This document shows positions 53,939 to 63,275 of a stretch of DNA of 64,000 nt, one piece after another (within the stretch, counting starts at the first letter, position 1; each line of letters opens with the position of its first letter). Below the pieces are notes generated by a model. The model made no database searches. It saw only the letters and a list, made by a program, of their open reading frames with translations, and was not told where the DNA came from. Both the position numbers and the translations under genes were made by a program. This DNA is from Escherichia phage CJ20. The DNA lies in sequence record MT533174.1. One strand, 5' to 3'.

Positions 53939-54607
53939 ATGATTGATAAGAACTATATTGAGGAAATTCGTGTCCTCGAGAAAAAAGAAGCCAAAGAAAA
54001 ATTAGCCAAATATGCAGCATCACTTGGTGTTGATGTTAAGAAAACAAAAACCTTTGATAATATGTTGACTGACCTGGAAGCAGGACTTAAAGCATTTGCT
54101 GACATGCCTATGCCTGATGATAATGAAGGCCTGAGCATCACTGACCTTATCGATGCCGATGATGAATTGTCAGGTGCTAAATTTGATGGCGATGAGTCAG
54201 CTAAAGAAGAAGCTAAACTCTTATTTGATGCTCCAACCGAAGCAAAGGTTGAAGTTGTTGAAATCGAAGAACCAACAGTTGTTGTGGTTGAAGAAGACGT
54301 TCCTTTTGTCGAAGAAAAGTTCGAAGCTGCTGTTGCTAAGGTTATCGAATCTGAAAAACCTGTATTTGCTCTGCCAAAAAACTTTAGTCCAAATCTTATG
54401 CTTATTGGCAAGAACCCTGGATTCTGTACTGTTCCATGGTGGATTTATCAGTGGATTGCCGAGACTCCAGATTGGAAAGAACGTCCAACTGCTTTCCCAC
54501 ATCCCACCGCGCACCAAACTCTATTTAGTTTGATTTATTACATCAATCGTAATGGGTCTGTTCTAGTACGAGAAACTCGTAACTCATCTTTTGTCACTTT
54601 AAAATAA
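53939..54607 (+). CDS. hypothetical acidic protein (222 aa); position and size compatible with Inh
   Basis: Size near T4 Inh (226 aa) and position next to hoc; acidic central region; by position only. Confidence 0.4.
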   Translation: MIDKNYIEEIRVLEKKEAKEKLAKYAASLGVDVKKTKTFDNMLTDLEAGLKAFADMPMPDDNEGLSITDLIDADDELSGAKFDGDESAKEEAKLLFDAPTEAKVEVVEIEEPTVVVVEEDVPFVEEKFEAAVAKVIESEKPVFALPKNFSPNLMLIGKNPGFCTVPWWIYQWIAETPDWKERPTAFPHPTAHQTLFSLIYYINRNGSVLVRETRNSSFVTLK

Positions 54608-54616
54608 GGGTTTATT

Positions 54617-55465
54617 ATGGCTTATACCGTAACTATTGCTCCTTTGGCGGCTACGGCCGTTATTGGAGCAACAACCAATTTCACTGCGACCGGTTCCGGT
54701 GCTGCAGCTGAAGGTACCGAATCATTTGTCTGGACCGTTGATGGCGTTCCTCAATCTTCTGTGACTGCTGCAATGGATTATGTTGCTGTTGGTCCAGCAG
54801 GCAGTAAGACTATTAAAGTTGTTGCAACAACTACACCAGCGGACGGCGGACCAGAAACAGCTGAAGCCGAAACAACTTTAACTATCCAGAATAAAACAAT
54901 GTCTGGTGTTTCTGTGACATTAACCCCAGCTTCGATTAATGTTCCGGAAGACACCATAGCTTCATTTAAAGCAGATGTAGTTGGCGCACCGAGTGGAGCT
55001 ACTTTTGCCTATTCTTGGAAGAAAGACGGTTCTCCTGTAGTTGGCACCACGGATACTTTAGCAATCGATACAAGCGCCGAAGGTTCCCAGTTAATTGAAG
55101 TTTCTGTTGTTGTATCTGCTACAGATTATAATCCTGTTACAGTTACCAAAACCGGTAATGTAACTATCACAGCCAAAGTCGCGCCAGTTCCAGAGGGTGA
55201 ACTACCTTACGTTCATCCGCTGCCAGTTCGTAATTCAGCTTATATCTGGTGTGGTTGGTGGGTTATGGACGAAATTCAGAAAATGACTCTTGCTGGGCAA
55301 GACTGGAAAACTGATGCTCCAGATAGCCCGTATTATTTGCACCGATATACCCTTCAAAAAATGATTACCGACTATCCAGAGGTTGATGTACAGGAATCTC
55401 GTAATGGTCGAATTATTCATCGCACCGCTTTAGAAGCTGGTATTATATACGATTACGTTTATTAA
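54617..55465 (+). CDS. hoc: Hoc-like outer capsid decoration protein with Ig-like repeats (282 aa)
   Basis: Thr/Val/Ala-rich beta-strand repeats typical of Ig-like domains, then Trp-rich C-terminal domain; position after inh. Confidence 0.5.
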   Translation: MAYTVTIAPLAATAVIGATTNFTATGSGAAAEGTESFVWTVDGVPQSSVTAAMDYVAVGPAGSKTIKVVATTTPADGGPETAEAETTLTIQNKTMSGVSVTLTPASINVPEDTIASFKADVVGAPSGATFAYSWKKDGSPVVGTTDTLAIDTSAEGSQLIEVSVVVSATDYNPVTVTKTGNVTITAKVAPVPEGELPYVHPLPVRNSAYIWCGWWVMDEIQKMTLAGQDWKTDAPDSPYYLHRYTLQKMITDYPEVDVQESRNGRIIHRTALEAGIIYDYVY

Positions 55466-56174: not shown

Positions 56175-57182
56175 ATGTTTAAAAAATACAACAGCCTTGA
56201 AAATCACTATAACAACAAGTTCATTGAAAAGATTCGTCTACAAGGCTTCACCAGCGGTGAATGGGTAGCTCGTGAAAAGATTCATGGTACCAATTTTTCA
56301 TTAATTATTGAACAAGACAATGTGACATGCGCGAAACGCACTGGACCTATCCTACCCGCAGAAGATTTCTATGGTTATGAAATTGTATTAAAGAACTACG
56401 CAGATTCTATTAAATCTGTGCAGAAACTTTTGCAGGATATTAATTACCAGGCTTACCAGATTTATGGCGAGTTTGCCGGGGCAGGTATCCAGAAGAATGT
56501 GGATTACGGTGATAAAGATTTCTATGTGTTTGATATCCGCGTTACTAAGGAAGATGGCTCTGAATCCGTCCTGACTGACACACTTATGGAAGCCTTCTGC
56601 ATTATTCATAAGTTTAAAGTTGCTCCGCGCCTGGCTACCGGAAGCTTTGAAGACCTTATTAAACTCCCTAATGACCTGGATTCTGTGGTCCCTGATTACA
56701 ATTTTACAGTGGATAACGCAGGATTGACTACAGCAAATACCACTGATTTTGATGCAAAGGTGGAAGGTAAAGTATTCACTGCTGAAGGATTTGTATTAAA
56801 ACCTGATGTTCCTGCCTGGTTACCTAACGGCGAGCGTGTAGCGATTAAATGTAAGAACTCTAAATTCAGTGAAAAGAAAAAGTCTGATAAACCTATTAAG
56901 GCTGCTGTTGTGTTGTCCCAGGAAGACCTGGATATTTTATGGAAGTTCACTGATTATGTGACTGTTAACCGTATTAATAATGTTATCAGTAAGATTGGTG
57001 AAGTATCTCCGAAAGACTTTGGAAAGGTAATGGGTTTGACTGTCCAGGATATCCTGGAAGAAGCTGGTCGTGAAGGCCTTGAATTGACCCAGTCAGAAAA
57101 TCCTGTTGAAGTTAAAAAGCAACTTATCACAAATGTAAGAGAAACATTAAGACATGTTTGGATTGCATTAATTAGTGAATAA
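56175..57182 (+). CDS. rnlB: RNA ligase 2 (335 aa)
   Basis: Motif I KIHGTN; near-identical N-terminus to recalled T4 Rnl2. Confidence 0.85.
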
Positions 57183-57185
57183 AAA

Positions 57186-57212
57186 AAGGGCCGCAAGGCC
57201 CTTATTCTTTTT
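57186..57212. terminator. bidirectional terminator (GGGCC-GCAA-GGCCC flanked by A7 and T-rich runs)
   Basis: Between convergent rnlB (+) and gp24 paralogue (-). Confidence 0.7.
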
Positions 57213-58485
57213 CCAGTGGTGGAAGTTTAACACCAAGATAAGAACTCAATTGGCTTTGGTTAGCCATCTTATCCATATCAGCCCCATCAATAAGGCGGGC
57301 TTCTTTATCATCTTTAGCAACGGTGTAGGGGTTAGCTGTCAAAGCATAACGAGCTAACAGTGCAACCGTAGGCTGTAAGCTTTCAGGGTCAACAATAACC
57401 TTGAATTCCCCAACCGATGTATCACCCTCATCATCAACTTCGCTAAGCCCTTCCGTATAAGGCGCATAATACAAAGATGCGACCGTCTGACCCTCGCCCA
57501 TATCCGCATTTACGCCAACAATAACATAATCGCATGGACTATTCATATCTGCATAAAGAGGCAAACCGTTCTTCAGAACACCATAGGCCAATTCATCCTG
57601 GTCTTCCTTTTTCTCAACCCAGCCAGAAGCGGCTAAAATAGCTGCACAACGGGAAGAAGCAACCGCATATGTACCAGCAAACGAAGTCTGACGTTGAACT
57701 GCAGAATTCATTTCACACATATAATAATACAGGGTTCGTGCGCGGTCCTGTGCGTTATCATATTTCGGGTCAGTGAGATTCAACACACCTTTTTCAGAAA
57801 CACCTTGTACCTTGAAGCGAGAACTAACAGTAATAAGGGATTGCAATACATCCTTATTAATTTCCTCTGCCATTTGAATGCCGAGAATATTATCGATGAA
57901 GTCTGTTGCATCGAAACCGTTTGCTTCCAGGTCCTGAGCAAGCTCGACAGTTAAAGAAGTTTTCAACTTTCTGGATTTAACTTCAGTCTGCCATTTATCG
58001 ATACGGAAACCAGCTTCAGCAATTTCAGGATGCCCCTTTTCAAATTTATCAGTGAAAGCAGCATCTGACATCATTCTTATATGTCCAGCAGCAATGGCTT
58101 CAGAAATAACTTCACCTAAATCAGTTTCGAGTGTCCCGGCAAAGGGGGAAGCTTCCAGAACTTTGAATACAACGCTTTCAAACTGAAACATATCGCCGAC
58201 TGCATAAGCTTCGTCTTTGTTCGTAAATTCTGGGATATTCTTACGCTCGAACATACCAATCTGGCCCGCGAATGTCGCTCCACCAAGATATGTCATTTTA
58301 TCATCTGGGGTCAGAACACGAACACCATACAACGCTGCAACAGGCTGGGTAGTTTTCTGTTCGGCAACGAGTGCTTTAAAAATTCGTTTATTCGTGGCCT
58401 GGGTATAAGAAAGCAAATTAGGACGGGCGACCTGGTTGGCCGCCGTTAATGTTGATTCGTGAATTAGTGCGTTAATCTTTTGCAT
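57202..58485 (-). CDS. head vertex protein gp24 paralogue (427 aa), second tandem copy
   Basis: gp23/gp24-fold signature blocks shared with upstream copy; GAGG RBS; start abuts upstream stop (TAAATG). Confidence 0.75.
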   Translation of the reverse strand: MQKINALIHESTLTAANQVARPNLLSYTQATNKRIFKALVAEQKTTQPVAALYGVRVLTPDDKMTYLGGATFAGQIGMFERKNIPEFTNKDEAYAVGDMFQFESVVFKVLEASPFAGTLETDLGEVISEAIAAGHIRMMSDAAFTDKFEKGHPEIAEAGFRIDKWQTEVKSRKLKTSLTVELAQDLEANGFDATDFIDNILGIQMAEEINKDVLQSLITVSSRFKVQGVSEKGVLNLTDPKYDNAQDRARTLYYYMCEMNSAVQRQTSFAGTYAVASSRCAAILAASGWVEKKEDQDELAYGVLKNGLPLYADMNSPCDYVIVGVNADMGEGQTVASLYYAPYTEGLSEVDDEGDTSVGEFKVIVDPESLQPTVALLARYALTANPYTVAKDDKEARLIDGADMDKMANQSQLSSYLGVKLPPLEKE

Positions 58486-59766
58486 TTACGCCTCATAAAT
58501 GATTGGCGGAAGTTTAACACCGAGCAGATAAGACATATTGCTCTGGCCGGCCATTAAATCCATATTAGTTGCATCGATAATACGAGCTTCTTTGTCGTCT
58601 TTAGCAACGGTGTAAGGGTTAGCTGAAAGTGCATATCGAACCATCAGGGAGATAGATGGCTGCAAACTGTCTGGGTCCACAATGACCTTAAACGCACCTA
58701 CGTGTTCTTCATCATCTAAGTCCAGGCCTTCGGTATAAGGAGCATAGAAGATTGAGCCTACGACTTCGTTTCCACCGTAATTTTCTTTAACGCCAACGGT
58801 TACATAATCCAATGGACTGTTAACATCACAGAATACAGGAAGACCATTAATCAAATAACCGTACGCTGTTTCAGGAAGCCATTGCTCGTCTTCAGGTTTA
58901 TGCTTCAGCCAGCCAGAACCAGCCAACATAGCAGCAACACGGCTAGAGGCAACAACAAAGGTACCGGAATAAGATGTAGTTTTCTGAATTTCGGAGTTCA
59001 TTTCGCAAACCAGTTCGTACAGTTTACGTGCACCTTCTGGAGCTGCATCATATGTTAAATCGATGGTGCCATTGTCAGAAACGCCAGTTACTTTATAACG
59101 CTTGGAAACGGTAATAAGAGACTGAAGAACATCTTTGTTAATTTCATCTGCCATAATAGTGGCAAGCAGGTCTTCCAAGAAAGCAGGAGCGTTAAACCCA
59201 TTTGCTTCCATATCCTGAGCAAGTTCAACAGTTAGTGCAGTTTTCAATTTACGTGTTTTAACCGGAGCATTCCATTTATTAACCTGGAATACAGCATTAC
59301 TAATCTCAACATCACCGGCTTCAAATTTCTCGGTGTGTGCCGCATCAGGAACCAAACGAATGGTTAATGCAATAAGACCTTCTTGCAGAACATCAGATAA
59401 CACTGTTTCTTTGGTCGATGCAAATGGATTATCAACCAGAGCTTTATAAACGGTATTTTGATATTTTACATATTCACCTTTAGCTACAGGCTGAGTGGCT
59501 GTAGTTAATTCTGGAATAGTTGTACGGTCTTTAGAACCGACTTCGCCACCATAAGTAGCACCAGTCTGGAAACTGAATTCATTATCAGGAGTAAGATATT
59601 TAACACCGTACAGAGCCGCAACTGGCTGGTTAGTACGTTGTTCAGCGATAATATCGCGGTAAATCAATTTGGTTGTAGCACGGGTCAAAGCAACAAGATT
59701 CGGGCGGCCCAAGGAGTTGCTGGTAGTGGTAGTTGACTCGCGCAGTAATTTGTTAATCTTTGCCAT
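58486..59766 (-). CDS. 24: head vertex protein gp24 (426 aa)
   Basis: Similarity to gp23 core blocks; size equals T4 gp24 (427 aa); late promoter upstream; position next to gene 23. Confidence 0.8.
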   Translation of the reverse strand: MAKINKLLRESTTTTSNSLGRPNLVALTRATTKLIYRDIIAEQRTNQPVAALYGVKYLTPDNEFSFQTGATYGGEVGSKDRTTIPELTTATQPVAKGEYVKYQNTVYKALVDNPFASTKETVLSDVLQEGLIALTIRLVPDAAHTEKFEAGDVEISNAVFQVNKWNAPVKTRKLKTALTVELAQDMEANGFNAPAFLEDLLATIMADEINKDVLQSLITVSKRYKVTGVSDNGTIDLTYDAAPEGARKLYELVCEMNSEIQKTTSYSGTFVVASSRVAAMLAGSGWLKHKPEDEQWLPETAYGYLINGLPVFCDVNSPLDYVTVGVKENYGGNEVVGSIFYAPYTEGLDLDDEEHVGAFKVIVDPDSLQPSISLMVRYALSANPYTVAKDDKEARIIDATNMDLMAGQSNMSYLLGVKLPPIIYEA

Positions 59767-59792
59767 TTGCGCTTTCCTTTTGTGATATACTT

Positions 59793-59800
59793 TATTTATA
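59793..59800 (-). promoter_or_regulatory. late promoter TATAAATA upstream of gene 24
   Basis: TATAAATA on minus strand about 27 nt upstream of gp24 ATG. Confidence 0.6.
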
Positions 59801-59806
59801 AAAGTT

Positions 59807-59836
59807 GTTTACAACCCGATTAAGATAAGACATAAT
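59807..59836 (+). promoter_or_regulatory. T4-type early promoter (GTTTACA-N17-CATAAT) with conserved leader
   Basis: Cassette shared with promoters at 2974, 21465 and 36641. Confidence 0.6.
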
Positions 59837-59872
59837 GATTTCATACTGAGTTACCAAACAATGGAGTCTAAA

Positions 59873-60154
59873 ATGAACAAAGTATCTTTCCTTCGGAATA
59901 CCTTTAAAAATCTGGAAATTGAAGTTGTTGCATTGGTCAACAAATACCCAAATGGTGTTAATGGTAATGCTCTGAACAAACTAGTTAAAAAATATGAAAA
60001 CTTAGCATATGATACTGATTTTTGGTGGAATGGTAATTATTCTACTCACACCAAAGACAAATCAGGTAACTGGTTGAAACTTCAAGAGAACAGTGTTAAT
60101 TTCAGAGACCTCATCAAGCGCCGGGTAGAAGTTCATTTAAATGGTATGGTATGA
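59873..60154 (+). CDS. hypothetical early protein (93 aa) between late genes 24 and 23
   Basis: GGAG RBS + ATG after early promoter; opposite strand to flanking late genes. Confidence 0.45.
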   Translation: MNKVSFLRNTFKNLEIEVVALVNKYPNGVNGNALNKLVKKYENLAYDTDFWWNGNYSTHTKDKSGNWLKLQENSVNFRDLIKRRVEVHLNGMV

Positions 60155-60162
60155 AAACAAGA

Positions 60163-60187
60163 AAGGGACCTCAAGGGTCCCTTTTTA
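60163..60187. terminator. rho-independent terminator (GGGACC...GGUCCC + U-run)
   Basis: Hairpin between convergent ORF 59873-60154 (+) and gene 23 (-). Confidence 0.65.
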
Positions 60188-60204
60188 TTTAACTTAATCT
60201 AAGA

Positions 60205-61764
60205 TTAAATTCCCTTAACATATACACGTCTAAAGTAACCGTTCAAGCCGAGGCTGTTAACGATGTCCGGCATACCGTTTTGAATACGCTTGGTCGGAGC
60301 CTGAGCTGCCGGGTCAGCGAACGGGTTAATACCGATACCGTAACGGGTTTTGAAGCCCATAACCGGCTGGAAGTTTTTCGGGTCAGAGCCACGCAGCGGG
60401 GTCAGTGCAACATATGGTGCGTAGTAGATACCAGCATCCATTTCGTTAGCGCCTTTGTAACCGATGGTGAAGTAATCTGCGCGAGCATACTGGTCGATGT
60501 AGACACGGTATTTGCCACCCAGAACACCAGCGAACACAGCTTTAGTGGTGTCAACGTTGAAACCTTTACCCAGACCCTGAGCAGCATAAGATACGGAGGT
60601 ATCAACTGCAGCCAGTACGTTAACTACGTTACGGGAAGCGATGATGAAGTTACCTGCACCACGACCGGTCTGACGAGCGATTTCAGCGGCTTCTTTATCA
60701 ATCTGGAACAGTAAAGCTTTGAAGCTTTCACCAGCCCAACGAGCACCACGGATATCAATCGGGTCCTGGAAGTCAAACACACCAGCTTTAGCGCCAACGG
60801 TGTTGGTCATACCAGATTTACCAACCTGAGCGGAGTAGTTAATCCAATCGATAACTTCACGGTTGATTTCCAGCATAATTTCGGTAGCCAGAATACCACT
60901 CAATTCGGCATCAGCATCCATACCATGAACAGCGCGCAGGTCCTGTGCCAGTTCGATGGAGTAGCTTGCTTTCAGCTGACGGGATTTAGCTTCGATAACT
61001 TGTTTATCGATACGGAAGCCCATTTCGTTCCACGGGTTATCAGTAGAACCGTTAAAGCCTTCCTGCAATTCGGCGATAGAAGTAGCCATACCTTCAGCGA
61101 TTTCTGCCAACTTACCAGCTTCGAGCAGTTTGGTAACTTCAGCGTCAAGTTTAGCAGCATCAGTAGCACCAGCATCAACGGTTACAGCTTCAACAGCCTG
61201 GTAGTGTGCAGAACCGGTTGCTTCGAAGAAGTGAGAATAAATTTTACCAACAGTAAGCAGTTTGCCTGCAGCCAGTGCTTCGAAAGTTTTAGCAGCGCCC
61301 TGACCAGAGAACATAGCGTTCGGAGCATACATCGGGTGGAAAGCTTCTTTAGCACCAGATGCAACAGGGTCTTTACCGTAAACTGCACGCAGGGCAAATA
61401 CCTGGCCAGTTGGGTTGTTCAGAGGCTGTACGCCACAAATATCAAACGCAATCAGATGCGGGATAGCACGACGAACCATACCCATAACTGCCGGCCCAAT
61501 CTGAGTTACTGCACCAGAGGTCTGGCCAGCAGCGATATTGGTAGCATCATAACCATGGTCACCACCGATTTCAGCTTCAGTCAGGAAAGAACCAAATGCT
61601 TCGGAGATTTTTTCGTCACGGTATTCAGGAGCGGTCAGGATATCTTGTTCCTGGTTTTCAAAGATTTTAGCGATGATAGCTTGTTTAGAAGCACCAACGA
61701 TTTCAGGAAGAGCTTCGTTTTCCAGCAGAGCGGACCATTTTTGAACTAATGCATTCTTTTTCAT
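60205..61764 (-). CDS. 23: major capsid protein gp23 (519 aa)
   Basis: Long near-identical blocks to recalled T4 gp23 (AIIAKIFENQE, GSFLTEAEIGGDHGY, NPWNEMGFRIDKQVIEAKSRQLKA, C-terminal YFRRVYVKGI). Confidence 0.9.
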   Translation of the reverse strand: MKKNALVQKWSALLENEALPEIVGASKQAIIAKIFENQEQDILTAPEYRDEKISEAFGSFLTEAEIGGDHGYDATNIAAGQTSGAVTQIGPAVMGMVRRAIPHLIAFDICGVQPLNNPTGQVFALRAVYGKDPVASGAKEAFHPMYAPNAMFSGQGAAKTFEALAAGKLLTVGKIYSHFFEATGSAHYQAVEAVTVDAGATDAAKLDAEVTKLLEAGKLAEIAEGMATSIAELQEGFNGSTDNPWNEMGFRIDKQVIEAKSRQLKASYSIELAQDLRAVHGMDADAELSGILATEIMLEINREVIDWINYSAQVGKSGMTNTVGAKAGVFDFQDPIDIRGARWAGESFKALLFQIDKEAAEIARQTGRGAGNFIIASRNVVNVLAAVDTSVSYAAQGLGKGFNVDTTKAVFAGVLGGKYRVYIDQYARADYFTIGYKGANEMDAGIYYAPYVALTPLRGSDPKNFQPVMGFKTRYGIGINPFADPAAQAPTKRIQNGMPDIVNSLGLNGYFRRVYVKGI

Positions 61765-61785: not shown

Positions 61786-62604
61786 TTAAGAAATTCGTGA
61801 TGCTGCGAGAGCAGACAAGTCCGCGAAGGACAGGGTAGGCTTGGCGCCTTTTTCTTCAACTGCTTCTGAGATGTAATTCAGTGCCGCAGCATCGTCTACA
61901 GAATTATTTATAGCTGCTTCGGTGATAGGTTTTTCGGCGGTGTCTACCTGACCTTTAACCATTTCAACGATAGCGCCAATTTTGGTACCGAACGCATCGG
62001 AATAATCCATACCTTCTACCAGAGAACCAACTTTTTCTTTCTGAGATTCGGTCAGGTCTTTGGTCGCTTCAGTCAACGCAACTTCACGTTGGACATAATT
62101 GATATAAGCATCACGCTTAGCAACTTCTTCGAACAGATTAGCGGTTTCTTCTTTCTGTTCAGCCAGTTCTTCCTGCATTTCTGCAACAACATCAACAGAT
62201 TCTTCTGGAACAACAACGTTGTGCTCAACGAACAGTTCTTTCATGCCAGTAAACATGGATTCGAACAGGTCAGCTTTAATGCCACGGTCGACAGCCAGTT
62301 TGTTTTCAGCAAGCCATTCTTTAGCAACGTGGTCCAGGAATTTAGCTGCAGATTCTTTCAGTTTTTTCTCTGCTTTTTCGTCGGATTCTTCTTTATTCTT
62401 TTCGACTTCTTCTTCAGCTTTTTCAGCAATTTTCTGAATGTGAGATTCTGCCAGTTTGATGGCGTGTTGCTTGACGGTAGCTTCGAATACAGTGCCGAAG
62501 GTAGCTTTCGCTTCCGGGGACAAATTAACTGATTCGAAAATACTATCGAGAGCAACGGAAGCATCGATGTTTTGAGCTTCAGAAATGAGTTGTTCTTTAA
62601 GCAT
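61786..62604 (-). CDS. 22: prohead core scaffold protein gp22 (272 aa)
   Basis: Acidic coiled-coil-rich protein of T4 gp22 size, between 21 and 23; late promoter upstream. Confidence 0.75.
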   Translation of the reverse strand: MLKEQLISEAQNIDASVALDSIFESVNLSPEAKATFGTVFEATVKQHAIKLAESHIQKIAEKAEEEVEKNKEESDEKAEKKLKESAAKFLDHVAKEWLAENKLAVDRGIKADLFESMFTGMKELFVEHNVVVPEESVDVVAEMQEELAEQKEETANLFEEVAKRDAYINYVQREVALTEATKDLTESQKEKVGSLVEGMDYSDAFGTKIGAIVEMVKGQVDTAEKPITEAAINNSVDDAAALNYISEAVEEKGAKPTLSFADLSALAASRIS

Positions 62605-62633: not shown

Positions 62634-62641
62634 TATTTATA
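62634..62641 (-). promoter_or_regulatory. late promoter TATAAATA upstream of gene 22
   Basis: TATAAATA on minus strand about 30 nt upstream of gp22 ATG. Confidence 0.55.
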
Positions 62642-63275
62642 ACGTCTTTAAAGCCTCTGCGAGAGCCATAAAGGCGTCATCGGCACTGGTATCGGCTTCC
62701 GCCGTTTGTGATTCTGTAATCTGCTTTGGTTTGACCCAAGCGTCCGGAGCACTTGGCCCCCATACTGCGTCTACTCCAACCGTCAATTTAAAACCTTCAT
62801 TAACGATGCTATAACCTTTTGCTGATTTAGTCAGGGAACCAAGTCCACGACTAGATACGCCAGGAATCCAACCTGCTCTTATATTCGCAGCAAGTTTATC
62901 ACCTGGACCATGGTCGCCTTCGATAATACGCGCGCGGCCATATACATCATTCCCTTTCCACCACATTTCCTCGATAATAATTGCTGCCTGCATAGGGTCA
63001 ACGTTTGCGCGAGGTGGATGGTTTAATTCTCCAAGAGACTGCTTGGTTTCAACCTGTTCGGCGATATAGTCCGCAACGGCTTTTTCCAAAATATGTTTAG
63101 GATAAAGTCGTTTATTACGGTTAACAACTTCAGCTTGTAGGAAAATACCTTCAATATAAAGTCCTGGCTTTAAACCGCTGCTGGAACCATCATGAGATTC
63201 CAACATCGGTACACCATCTTTAATTTCGCCCGGTTGACCCCAGTGTTCGATTAGTAACTCTGGTTTCTGTTCCAT
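62637..63275 (-). CDS. 21: prohead protease gp21 (212 aa)
   Basis: Same length as T4 gp21; position between 68 and 22. Confidence 0.75.
   Translation of the reverse strand: MEQKPELLIEHWGQPGEIKDGVPMLESHDGSSSGLKPGLYIEGIFLQAEVVNRNKRLYPKHILEKAVADYIAEQVETKQSLGELNHPPRANVDPMQAAIIIEEMWWKGNDVYGRARIIEGDHGPGDKLAANIRAGWIPGVSSRGLGSLTKSAKGYSIVNEGFKLTVGVDAVWGPSAPDAWVKPKQITESQTAEADTSADDAFMALAEALKTL

What the first reader, a model, noticed from the sequence alone, without database searches (positions are those of the whole stretch)
57202..59766. Tandem duplicated, diverged head-vertex (gp24) genes
Two adjacent minus-strand ORFs of 426 and 427 aa share the gp23/gp24 capsid-fold blocks (for example QPVAALYGV, LKT(A/S)LTVELAQD(M/L)EANGF, DEINKDVLQSLITVS, ANPYTVAKDDKEAR) but are only about half identical by eye. 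The upstream copy's stop abuts the downstream copy's start (TAAATG at 58483-58488), and the downstream copy has its own GAGG RBS. Only the upstream copy has a late promoter (TATAAATA 59793-59800), so they look co-transcribed. T4 has a single gene 24; two diverged vertex paralogues could form specialised or mixed vertices.
Basis: partly seen in the sequence, partly recalled or inferred. Interest (0 to 1): 0.55.

Follow-up and report, generated by a model that had tools for sequence, protein, structure and literature searches.

The report
Known paired head-vertex (gp24) genes
This T4-like coliphage carries two old, diverged, co-transcribed copies of the capsid vertex gene 24, a pair already annotated in its relatives (JS98, VR7, S16-like phages), and what the second copy does is still untested.

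Summary
Two abutting minus-strand ORFs, 58486-59766 (426 aa, "24-I") and 57202-58485 (427 aa, "24-II"), are both full-length homologues of T4 gp24. They are 56% identical in protein and 62% in DNA. One late-promoter motif lies upstream of 24-I, a GAGG site precedes 24-II, the stop and start codons abut (TAAATG), and a terminator hairpin follows 24-II.

The pair is not new. The window is a VR7-like (Gaprivervirus) phage, and the same pair is annotated as 24(1)/24(2) in VR7, vertex protein I/II in VR20/25/26, and 24a/24b in JS98. It also occurs in Gelderlandvirus, Marfavirus, Erwinia phage FBB1 and metagenomic contigs, always in the order I then II.

What I add:
- 24-I is the T4 gp24 orthologue (70% identity). 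24-II is a separate, 100%-supported clade that is as far from 24-I as from T4 gp24, so the split is at least as old as the split of 24-I from the T4-group gp24s.
- Both copies are under strong purifying selection (dN/dS 0.02-0.06).
- Both keep the gp21 protease motif at residue 10.
- Divergence is strongest in the surface insertion domain, and several 24-II-specific changes cluster in the N-arm.

Whether the two proteins make mixed or specialised vertices cannot be tested here. Verdict: real, ordinary, already known. Low to moderate interest.

The parts
59793..59800 (-). T4-type late promoter motif TATAAATA upstream of gp24-I
   Evidence: Exact match. It is the only match with 0 or 1 mismatches upstream of either gp24 start. 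The same motif sits at the same relative position in VR7, JS98, F48, CF-SP2 and metagenomic loci.
59775..59778 (-). AGGA ribosome-binding site of gp24-I
   Evidence: Read from the sequence (AAAGGAAAGCGCAAATG). Conserved in VR7, JS98 and CF-SP2.
58486..59766 (-). gp24-I, 426 aa: orthologue of T4 gp24 (capsid vertex protein I / 24(1) / 24a)
   Evidence: ORF. Pfam PF07068, 2.2e-97. PDB 1yue (T4 gp24), 653 bits over the full length. 70% identical to T4 gp24 and 96% to VR7 24(1). Falls in the I clade with 100% support.
58491..58494 (-). GAGG ribosome-binding site of gp24-II, inside the last codons of gp24-I
   Evidence: Sequence. Conserved in VR7, JS98 and CF-SP2.
58483..58488 (-). Stop/start junction TAAATG (gp24-I stop abuts gp24-II start)
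   Evidence: Stop and start abut, overlap or lie one base apart in all 9 two-copy loci examined.
57202..58485 (-). gp24-II, 427 aa: second, deeply diverged vertex-protein paralogue (capsid vertex protein II / 24(2) / 24b)
   Evidence: ORF. Pfam PF07068, 3.3e-97. PDB 1yue, 494 bits over the full length. 56% identical to gp24-I, 98% to VR7 24(2) and 95% to JS98 24b. Falls in the II clade with 100% support. dN/dS is 0.017-0.029.
57186..57203 (.). Bidirectional intrinsic-terminator hairpin that ends the gp24-I/gp24-II transcript and the convergent rnlB transcript
   Evidence: Terminator scan reports it on both strands: 7-bp stem, 5 G-C pairs, T run.
60205..61764 (-). Context: gene 23 major capsid protein, upstream, with its own terminator-like hairpin at 60162-60184
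   Evidence: 28-29% identical to either gp24 copy over about 250-280 aa.

Best explanation
The locus is a late bicistronic operon encoding two paralogous gp24-type pentameric vertex proteins, in the order late promoter, 24-I, 24-II, terminator. 24-I is the direct counterpart of T4 gp24. 24-II is an old sister lineage that has been inherited together with 24-I, always immediately downstream and translationally coupled, across several genera of T4-like phages. Both proteins are functional capsid-shell subunits. Each is made late, enters the prohead, is trimmed by the gp21 prohead protease after Glu10, and contributes to the eleven non-portal five-fold vertices.

Shown here: homology, gene order, the transcription and translation signals, the age of the split, co-inheritance, purifying selection on both copies, and retention of the cleavage motif.

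Inferred: that both proteins are in the virion, and how they share the vertices. My best guess is that they form distinct pentamer types rather than freely mixed ones. The reason is that 24-II-specific fixed substitutions cluster in the N-arm (T4 residues 25-36), which in T4 pairs with the neighbouring subunit's insertion-domain linker within the pentamer.
For: Identity of the proteins:
- Both are full-length matches to T4 gp24 (1yue), at 653 and 494 bits, against 46-50 bits to gp23.
- Both match Pfam PF07068 and the same PHROG.

Operon structure:
- There is a single TATAAATA at 59793-59800 and none before 24-II, even allowing one mismatch.
- GAGG lies 5 nt before the 24-II ATG, and the junction is TAAATG.
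- A terminator hairpin lies at 57186-57203.

Conservation of the pair:
- 73 phage records hold at least 80% of the region, annotated as two vertex proteins. VR7 names them 24(1)/24(2) and JS98 names them 24a/24b.
- The pair is also present in Marfavirus F48, Gelderlandvirus CF-SP2 and Erwinia phage FBB1.
- In four metagenomic lineages the II-type gene (65-69% identical to the window's) always directly follows an I-type gene.
- Stop and start abut, overlap or lie one base apart in all nine two-copy loci examined.

Selection:
- dN/dS between the window and VR7 is 0.055 (I) and 0.029 (II). Between the window and JS98 it is 0.056 (I) and 0.017 (II).
- There are no frameshifts or stops in any of the 10 I/II pairs.

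Cleavage motif:
- (L/I)-x-E followed by S at residues 8-11 is kept in every I and II sequence. T4 gp24 loses its 10 N-terminal residues to gp21 (PMC9546572).

Phylogeny:
- The II clade has 100% support. The two I clades have 100% support each and hold the same sets of genomes as the two II sub-clades.
- d(I,II)=0.67 and d(II,T4 group)=0.66, against d(I,T4 group)=0.43. II is only 0.08 faster than I relative to outgroups.

Pattern of divergence:
- Identity is lowest (25-50%) across T4 residues 60-160, which cover the insertion domain and its linkers. The spine helix and the C-terminal P domain are 70-85% identical.
- Of 20 sites fixed differently between the clades, 17 carry the I state in single-copy gp24s, and five of the 20 lie at residues 25-36.
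Against: No direct evidence shows that 24-II is in the particle, forms pentamers or sits at vertices. No virion proteomics or structure for a two-copy phage was found in the searchable literature or among PDB sequences. T4 builds all eleven vertices with one gp24, and gp23 point mutations can even bypass gp24, so a second vertex protein is not structurally required. The codon adaptation of 24-II to gp23 usage is slightly lower than that of 24-I in all eight genomes tested, which fits lower expression. The backbone of the gp24 tree is weakly supported (30-51%), so the exact timing of the split and the number of losses are uncertain.
Confidence: 0.75

Rival explanations
1. 24-II was not made by in-situ duplication. 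It was captured by recombination from a deeply diverged, unsampled T4-like lineage (a xenologue) and inserted next to the resident gene 24. This rival concerns the origin of the second copy only, so it is compatible with the functional explanation.
For: 24-II is no closer to 24-I than to any other Tevenvirinae gp24, or to Acinetobacter-phage gp24: d(I,II)=0.67, d(II,T4 group)=0.66, d(II,Acinetobacter phages)=0.67. Its N-arm shares states with outgroup gp24s. The head module shows mosaicism: the gp23 and gp24-I similarity patterns conflict. Single-copy genera are interspersed with two-copy ones in the tree. Under the duplication model that pattern needs several independent losses.
Against: No phage or contig was found in which a II-type gene is the only gene 24. 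Every II-type gene, down to 65% identity, sits behind an I-type gene. The I and II sub-clades hold the same genomes, so any capture must itself be very old. Ancient duplication followed by losses explains the same distances.
Confidence: 0.3
2. 24-II is no longer a vertex subunit of the mature head. It could be an assembly-only factor or a minor shell component at special positions. It could also be a decoy or alternative that lets the phage escape host systems or antibodies which recognise capsid proteins.
For: T4 needs only one gp24. The largest differences between I and II lie in the exposed insertion domain. 24-II shows slightly weaker codon adaptation than 24-I.
Against: 24-II keeps the full length of gp24. 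It has 124 positions invariant across all I and II sequences, including the spine-helix and P-domain blocks. It also keeps the protease motif. 24-II is more conserved than 24-I between genera (95% against 90% between the window and JS98), which points to tight structural constraint typical of a lattice subunit. No evidence for any defence link was found.
Confidence: 0.15
3. The second copy is a redundant, decaying duplicate or a sequencing or assembly artefact.
For: None beyond the fact of the duplication.
Against: DNA identity between the copies is 62% and the longest shared run is 17 nt. The pair was sequenced independently in at least 73 phage isolates and in metagenomes. Both reading frames are intact in all 10 pairs. 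dN/dS is 0.017-0.063 for 24-II.
Confidence: 0.02

Closest known systems
Annotated gp24 pairs of JS98-type and VR7-type phages: JS98 24a/24b (EF469154), VR7 24(1)/24(2) (HM563683), VR20/25/26 capsid vertex protein I/II, S16-like Gelderlandvirus
   Same: The same two genes in the same order and orientation, between gene 23 and rnlB. The window copies are 96% and 98% identical in protein to VR7 24(1) and 24(2), and 90% and 95% to JS98 24a and 24b.
   Different: Nothing of substance. The window is another isolate of the VR7-like group; its best DNA match is Escherichia phage UPEC01 at 96.5%.
T4 gp24 head vertex protein (PDB 1yue; in situ 5vf3, 7vrt, 7vs5)
   Same: Same fold family and length, with an N-terminal 10-residue propeptide motif. 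The gene sits after gene 23 and is expressed late. 24-I is 70% identical to T4 gp24 and 24-II is 56% identical.
   Different: T4 has one gene 24. Here a second, deeply diverged paralogue is translationally coupled to the first.
The older gp23/gp24 duplication that produced a specialised vertex protein in T4-like phages
   Same: Another round of duplication and divergence within the same capsid-protein family (PF07068). As background, PMC10580926 and PMC9546572 describe gp24 as a gp23 derivative that gp23 mutations can bypass.
   Different: gp23 and gp24 are only 28-29% identical and have clearly different roles, hexamers against pentamers. I and II are 56% identical and no division of labour is known.

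Membership tests
T4 gp24 head vertex protein family | Full-length sequence homology to T4 gp24, clearly stronger than to gp23 | tested here: met
   24-I scores 653 bits and 24-II 494 bits to 1yue over residues 1-424. Both score 44-51 bits to gp23 chains. Identity to the window's own gp23 is 28-29% over a partial alignment.
T4 gp24 head vertex protein family | About 420-430 aa, lacking the 65-residue gp23 propeptide, with an insertion domain between the N-arm and the spine helix | tested here: met
   The proteins are 426 and 427 aa. They align with few gaps to T4 gp24 across residues 60-160, the insertion domain and its linkers. This is tested by sequence only; no model was built.
T4 gp24 head vertex protein family | Gene located directly downstream of gene 23 in the late head-gene cluster (21-22-23-24) and expressed from a late promoter | tested here: met
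   The gene order 21, 22, 23, 24-I, 24-II with convergent rnlB is seen and in annotated relatives. The TATAAATA motif is present. Transcription itself was not measured.
T4 gp24 head vertex protein family | N-terminal propeptide removed by the gp21 prohead protease after Glu10, at an (L/I)-x-E motif | tested here: met
   The motif is LLRE|S in 24-I and LIHE|S in 24-II, and it is kept in all 20 I and II sequences. T4 cleavage is described in PMC9546572. Actual cleavage is not testable here.
T4 gp24 head vertex protein family | Forms pentamers at the eleven non-portal vertices of the mature head | not testable with these tools
   This needs virion proteomics or cryo-EM of a two-copy phage. None was found among PDB sequences or in the searchable papers.
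JS98/VR7-type tandem gp24 pair (24a/24b, 24(1)/24(2)) | Two gp24 genes in the order I then II, abutting, each orthologous to the corresponding annotated copy | tested here: met
   Window I groups with VR7 24(1) and JS98 24a. Window II groups with VR7 24(2) and JS98 24b. Support is 100% for each clade. The junctions are compared.

The most novel reading that the evidence does not exclude
Two vertex proteins may be the ancestral state of the T4/JS98/Karam/Kanagawa-type phages, with T4's single gene 24 a secondary loss. In phages that keep both, the paralogues would form distinct pentamers at non-equivalent vertices of the prolate head, for example the apical vertex against the ten shoulder vertices. 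That would be a second tier of capsomer specialisation beyond gp23 and gp24.
Probability: 0.15. Interest if true: 0.55.

Novelty: already known. Interest (0 to 1): 0.25.

Why it matters
The pair is a textbook-style case of repeated duplication and specialisation within one capsid-protein family. If the two proteins occupy different vertices or form mixed pentamers, that would bear on how large prolate capsids handle non-equivalent five-fold positions. It would also matter for engineering JS98-, VR7- and S16-type therapeutic phages. As it stands, the feature has been annotated in public records for many years. This window adds another example, not a new kind of thing. The open point is functional and needs experiments.

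Tried and rejected
- Assembly artefact or recent duplication: rejected. DNA identity is 62%, the longest identical run is 17 nt, and synonymous sites are saturated (dS about 1.7).
- Pseudogenisation of one copy: rejected. Frames are intact in 10 pairs and dN/dS is at most 0.06 in the unsaturated comparisons.
- A separate late promoter for 24-II: none found with 0 or 1 mismatches.
- Duplication within the I lineage followed by faster evolution of II: only partly tenable. The relative-rate excess of II is 0.08 (CI 0.005-0.18), while the extra I-II distance is 0.24. II is also equidistant from I and from the T4 group.
- A foreign base composition for II, as a sign of recent transfer: not seen. 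GC, GC3 and ENC are close to those of I.
- A lineage with II as its only gene 24: none found in the phage collection (the identity series drops from 79.7% in two-copy records to 63.6% in single-copy Jiaodavirus) or in the large protein set.
- Literature: nine full-text searches and several paper look-ups found no accessible paper that discusses or tests the pair. One search was badly framed and returned only noise. The JS98 genome paper (Zuber et al. 2007, PMC2168658) is not held. The VR7 and S16 papers were not looked up. From memory, these may mention the duplication.
- Not attempted: structure prediction, because the full-length alignment to a solved gp24 already settles the fold, and the tool offers no multimer mode.
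Full report
**1. Observation.**
The ORF list shows two minus-strand ORFs exactly as described. These are 58486..59766 (426 aa, here 24-I) and 57202..58485 (427 aa, here 24-II). They lie downstream of genes 21 (62637..63275), 22 (61786..62604) and 23 (60205..61764), and they converge on rnlB (56175..57182, plus strand).

BLASTP between the two gives 56% identity over the whole length, E=4e-173. At the DNA level they are 62% identical, with no identical run longer than 17 nt.

- the TAA/ATG junction at 58488-58483;
- GAGG at 58494-58491;
- TATAAATA at 59793-59800.

The late-promoter motif occurs 15 times in the window against 4.5 expected. It is the only match with 0 or 1 mismatches ahead of either start codon. 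A terminator-like hairpin at 57186-57203 follows the 24-II stop and also serves the convergent rnlB. Another hairpin, at 60162-60184, follows gene 23. The unit is therefore late promoter, 24-I, 24-II, terminator.

**2. What the proteins are.**
Both match Pfam PF07068 and the same PHROG. Against PDB sequences, both align end to end with T4 gp24 (1yue). 24-I scores 653 bits and 24-II scores 494 bits, while gp23 chains score only 44-51 bits. Each copy is 28-29% identical to the window's own gp23 over part of its length. Both are therefore vertex-protein (gp24) homologues, not extra gp23 copies.

**3. Already annotated elsewhere.**
Megablast of the region finds 82 phage records, of which 73 cover at least 80% of it. 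The best is Escherichia phage UPEC01 at 96.5%. The window is a VR7-like phage (genus Gaprivervirus). The pair is named in several records:
- 24(1)/24(2) in VR7;
- capsid vertex protein I/II in VR20, VR25 and VR26;
- 24a/24b in JS98, genus Dhakavirus.

It is also present in Klebsiella phage F48 (Marfavirus) and Salmonella phage CF-SP2 (Gelderlandvirus).

A tblastn search with 24-II finds 1416 phage records but 1534 places, so at most roughly 120 records carry two copies. In the sampled ranking, every two-place record has a II-type match of at least 79.7% identity, and every record at 63.6% or below has one place. Single-copy examples that I fetched are T4, HX01, JD18, Entb_43, PEi26, Ac42, Phi1, pR7_1 and an Aeromonas phage.

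**4. Wider distribution and linkage.**
A search of the large protein collection with 24-II gives a graded series from 99% down to 65% identity. It includes Erwinia phage FBB1, which has both a II-type protein (P0017) and an I-type protein (P0073). Many hits pair with an I-type hit whose longest contig has the same length.

I looked up four of the most divergent II-type proteins (65-69% identity). In every contig the II-type gene directly follows an I-type gene, which follows gene 23 wherever the contig reaches that far. In all nine two-copy loci compared, the stop of I and the start of II abut, overlap or lie one base apart (TAAATG, ATGA, TAATG, TGATATG/TAATATG). The late-promoter motif is kept upstream of I in seven of the eight loci whose upstream sequence is available; mg18 has CATAAATA. 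I found no case where a II-type gene is the only gene 24.

**5. Age and origin.**
In a 19-sequence NJ tree, the I clade (99%) groups with the T4, Mosigvirus, Karamvirus and Kanagawavirus gp24s (88%), excluding the II clade (100%).

With 39 sequences, all ten II-type proteins form one clade (100%) with two sub-clades (100% each). Their I-type partners form two clades (100% each) containing exactly the same genomes. Single-copy gp24s fall between those two I clades, but on weakly supported branches of 30-51%.

Mean Kimura distances:

| Pair | Distance |
|---|---|
| I to II | 0.67 |
| II to T4 group | 0.66 |
| I to T4 group | 0.43 |
| I to Acinetobacter-phage gp24 | 0.64 |

Relative to the outgroups, II is only 0.08 faster than I (CI 0.005-0.18). 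That is too little to explain the 0.24 excess of the I-II distance over the I-T4 distance. The I/II split is therefore at least as old as the split between I and T4 gp24.

24-I is the T4 gp24 orthologue at 70% identity; 24-II is 56% identical to T4 gp24. Two origins remain open. One is an ancient tandem duplication followed by loss of II in T4-type and other lineages. The other is an ancient capture of a diverged gene 24. The data do not decide between them.

The similarity patterns of gp23 and 24-I also conflict. Window gp23 is 90% identical to single-copy PEi26 but 82-84% to F48 and CF-SP2. For 24-I the ranking is reversed. This indicates recombination between genes 23 and 24.

**6. Are both copies functional?**
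Nei-Gojobori estimates for comparisons that are not saturated:

| Comparison | dN/dS, 24-I | dN/dS, 24-II | dN/dS, gene 23 |
|---|---|---|---|
| Window vs VR7 | 0.055 | 0.029 | 0.081 |
| Window vs JS98 | 0.056 | 0.017 | 0.047 |

24-II is more conserved between genera than 24-I (95% against 90% between the window and JS98). All 20 I and II sequences are intact and keep the (L/I)-x-E-S motif at residues 8-11. This corresponds to the site where T4 gp24 loses ten residues to the gp21 prohead protease (PMC9546572). Keeping this motif makes sense only for a protein that enters the prohead.

**7. Where the copies differ.**
Mapped to T4 gp24 numbering, identity between I and II is 25-50% across residues 60-160. 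From the T4 structure paper, this span covers insertion-domain linker 1, the surface-exposed insertion domain that lies on the neighbouring subunit, and linker 2, which contacts neighbouring capsomers.

Identity rises to 70-85% in the spine-helix region (170-230) and the C-terminal P domain (340-410). In total, 124 positions are invariant across all I and II sequences.

Twenty positions are fixed differently between the two clades. At 17 of them the single-copy gp24s carry the I state. Five of the 20 cluster at residues 25-36 of the N-arm. In expanded T4 heads, part of that arm pairs with the insertion-domain linker of the adjacent subunit in the same pentamer. Several II states in this segment are shared with outgroup gp24s such as Phi1 and an Aeromonas phage, which fits an old lineage.

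Codon adaptation to gp23 usage is slightly lower for II than for I in all eight genomes tested (for example 0.39 against 0.46 in the window). Base composition is similar.

**8. Mechanism.**
The best-supported reading is that both proteins are late-expressed, protease-processed shell subunits for the five-fold vertices. They are made in a fixed ratio through translational coupling.

Homology, operon structure, co-inheritance, selection and motif retention are shown here. Presence in the virion and the arrangement at the vertices are inferred. The N-arm cluster leads me to favour distinct pentamer types over random mixing, but this is weak inference. T4 needs only one gp24 and can dispense even with that through gp23 mutations, so the second paralogue is an elaboration, not a necessity.

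**9. Literature.**
Nine full-text searches and several paper look-ups found no accessible paper that discusses or tests the two-gene arrangement. The F48 genome paper does not mention it. The JS98 genome paper is not held. From my own recollection, which I have not verified, the JS98, VR7 and S16 genome papers may note the duplication. The GenBank annotations are enough to call the feature known.

**10. Verdict.**
The feature is a real, conserved and ancient gp24 paralogue pair that is already annotated in many relatives, so it is not novel. The residual interest lies in the untested question of what the second vertex protein does, and in the possibility that T4's single gene 24 is a derived state.

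Noticed in passing
window 59767-60204 (ORF 59861..60154, + strand): The gap between genes 23 and 24-I holds a 97-aa opposite-strand ORF of unknown function (phrog_6003; VR7ORF190c / JS98 orf173). T4 has the homing endonuclease segD at this position. gp23 and gp24-I give conflicting similarity rankings among genera, which suggests a recombination breakpoint in or near this slot.
   Followed up: partly
window 57186-57203: A single G+C-rich hairpin with T runs on both sides looks like a shared bidirectional terminator for the convergent rnlB (+) and gp24-II (-) transcripts.
   Followed up: partly
window 57202-58485, protein residues 24-37: All II-type proteins carry an N-arm signature LL(S/A)(Y/F)T(Q/K/R)ATN(K/R)RIF(K/R). 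I-type proteins and nearly all single-copy Tevenvirinae gp24s have LVALTRATT(K/Q)L(I/V)Y instead. Several of the II states are shared with distant outgroup gp24s (Phi1, an Aeromonas phage).
   Followed up: partly
window 54617-55465 and 53939-54607 (+ strand): By gene order and the annotation of JS98, the 282-aa ORF is Hoc and the 222-aa ORF is Inh. This Hoc is markedly shorter than the T4 hoc gene annotated in L007 (1131 nt, about 376 aa).
   Followed up: no
L014, L017, L018 (metagenomic two-copy loci), genes directly downstream of 24-II: In the deeper two-copy lineages, two extra same-strand genes (about 335-350 aa and 165 aa, no Pfam hit) follow 24-II before rnlB. They are absent from the window.
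   Followed up: no
window 60205-61764 compared with 57202-59766: Gene 23 has much stronger codon bias (ENC 33) and lower synonymous divergence (dS 0.11 between the window and VR7) than either gp24 copy (ENC 43-48, dS 0.32-0.41). This fits its roughly 17-fold higher copy number in the capsid.
   Followed up: partly
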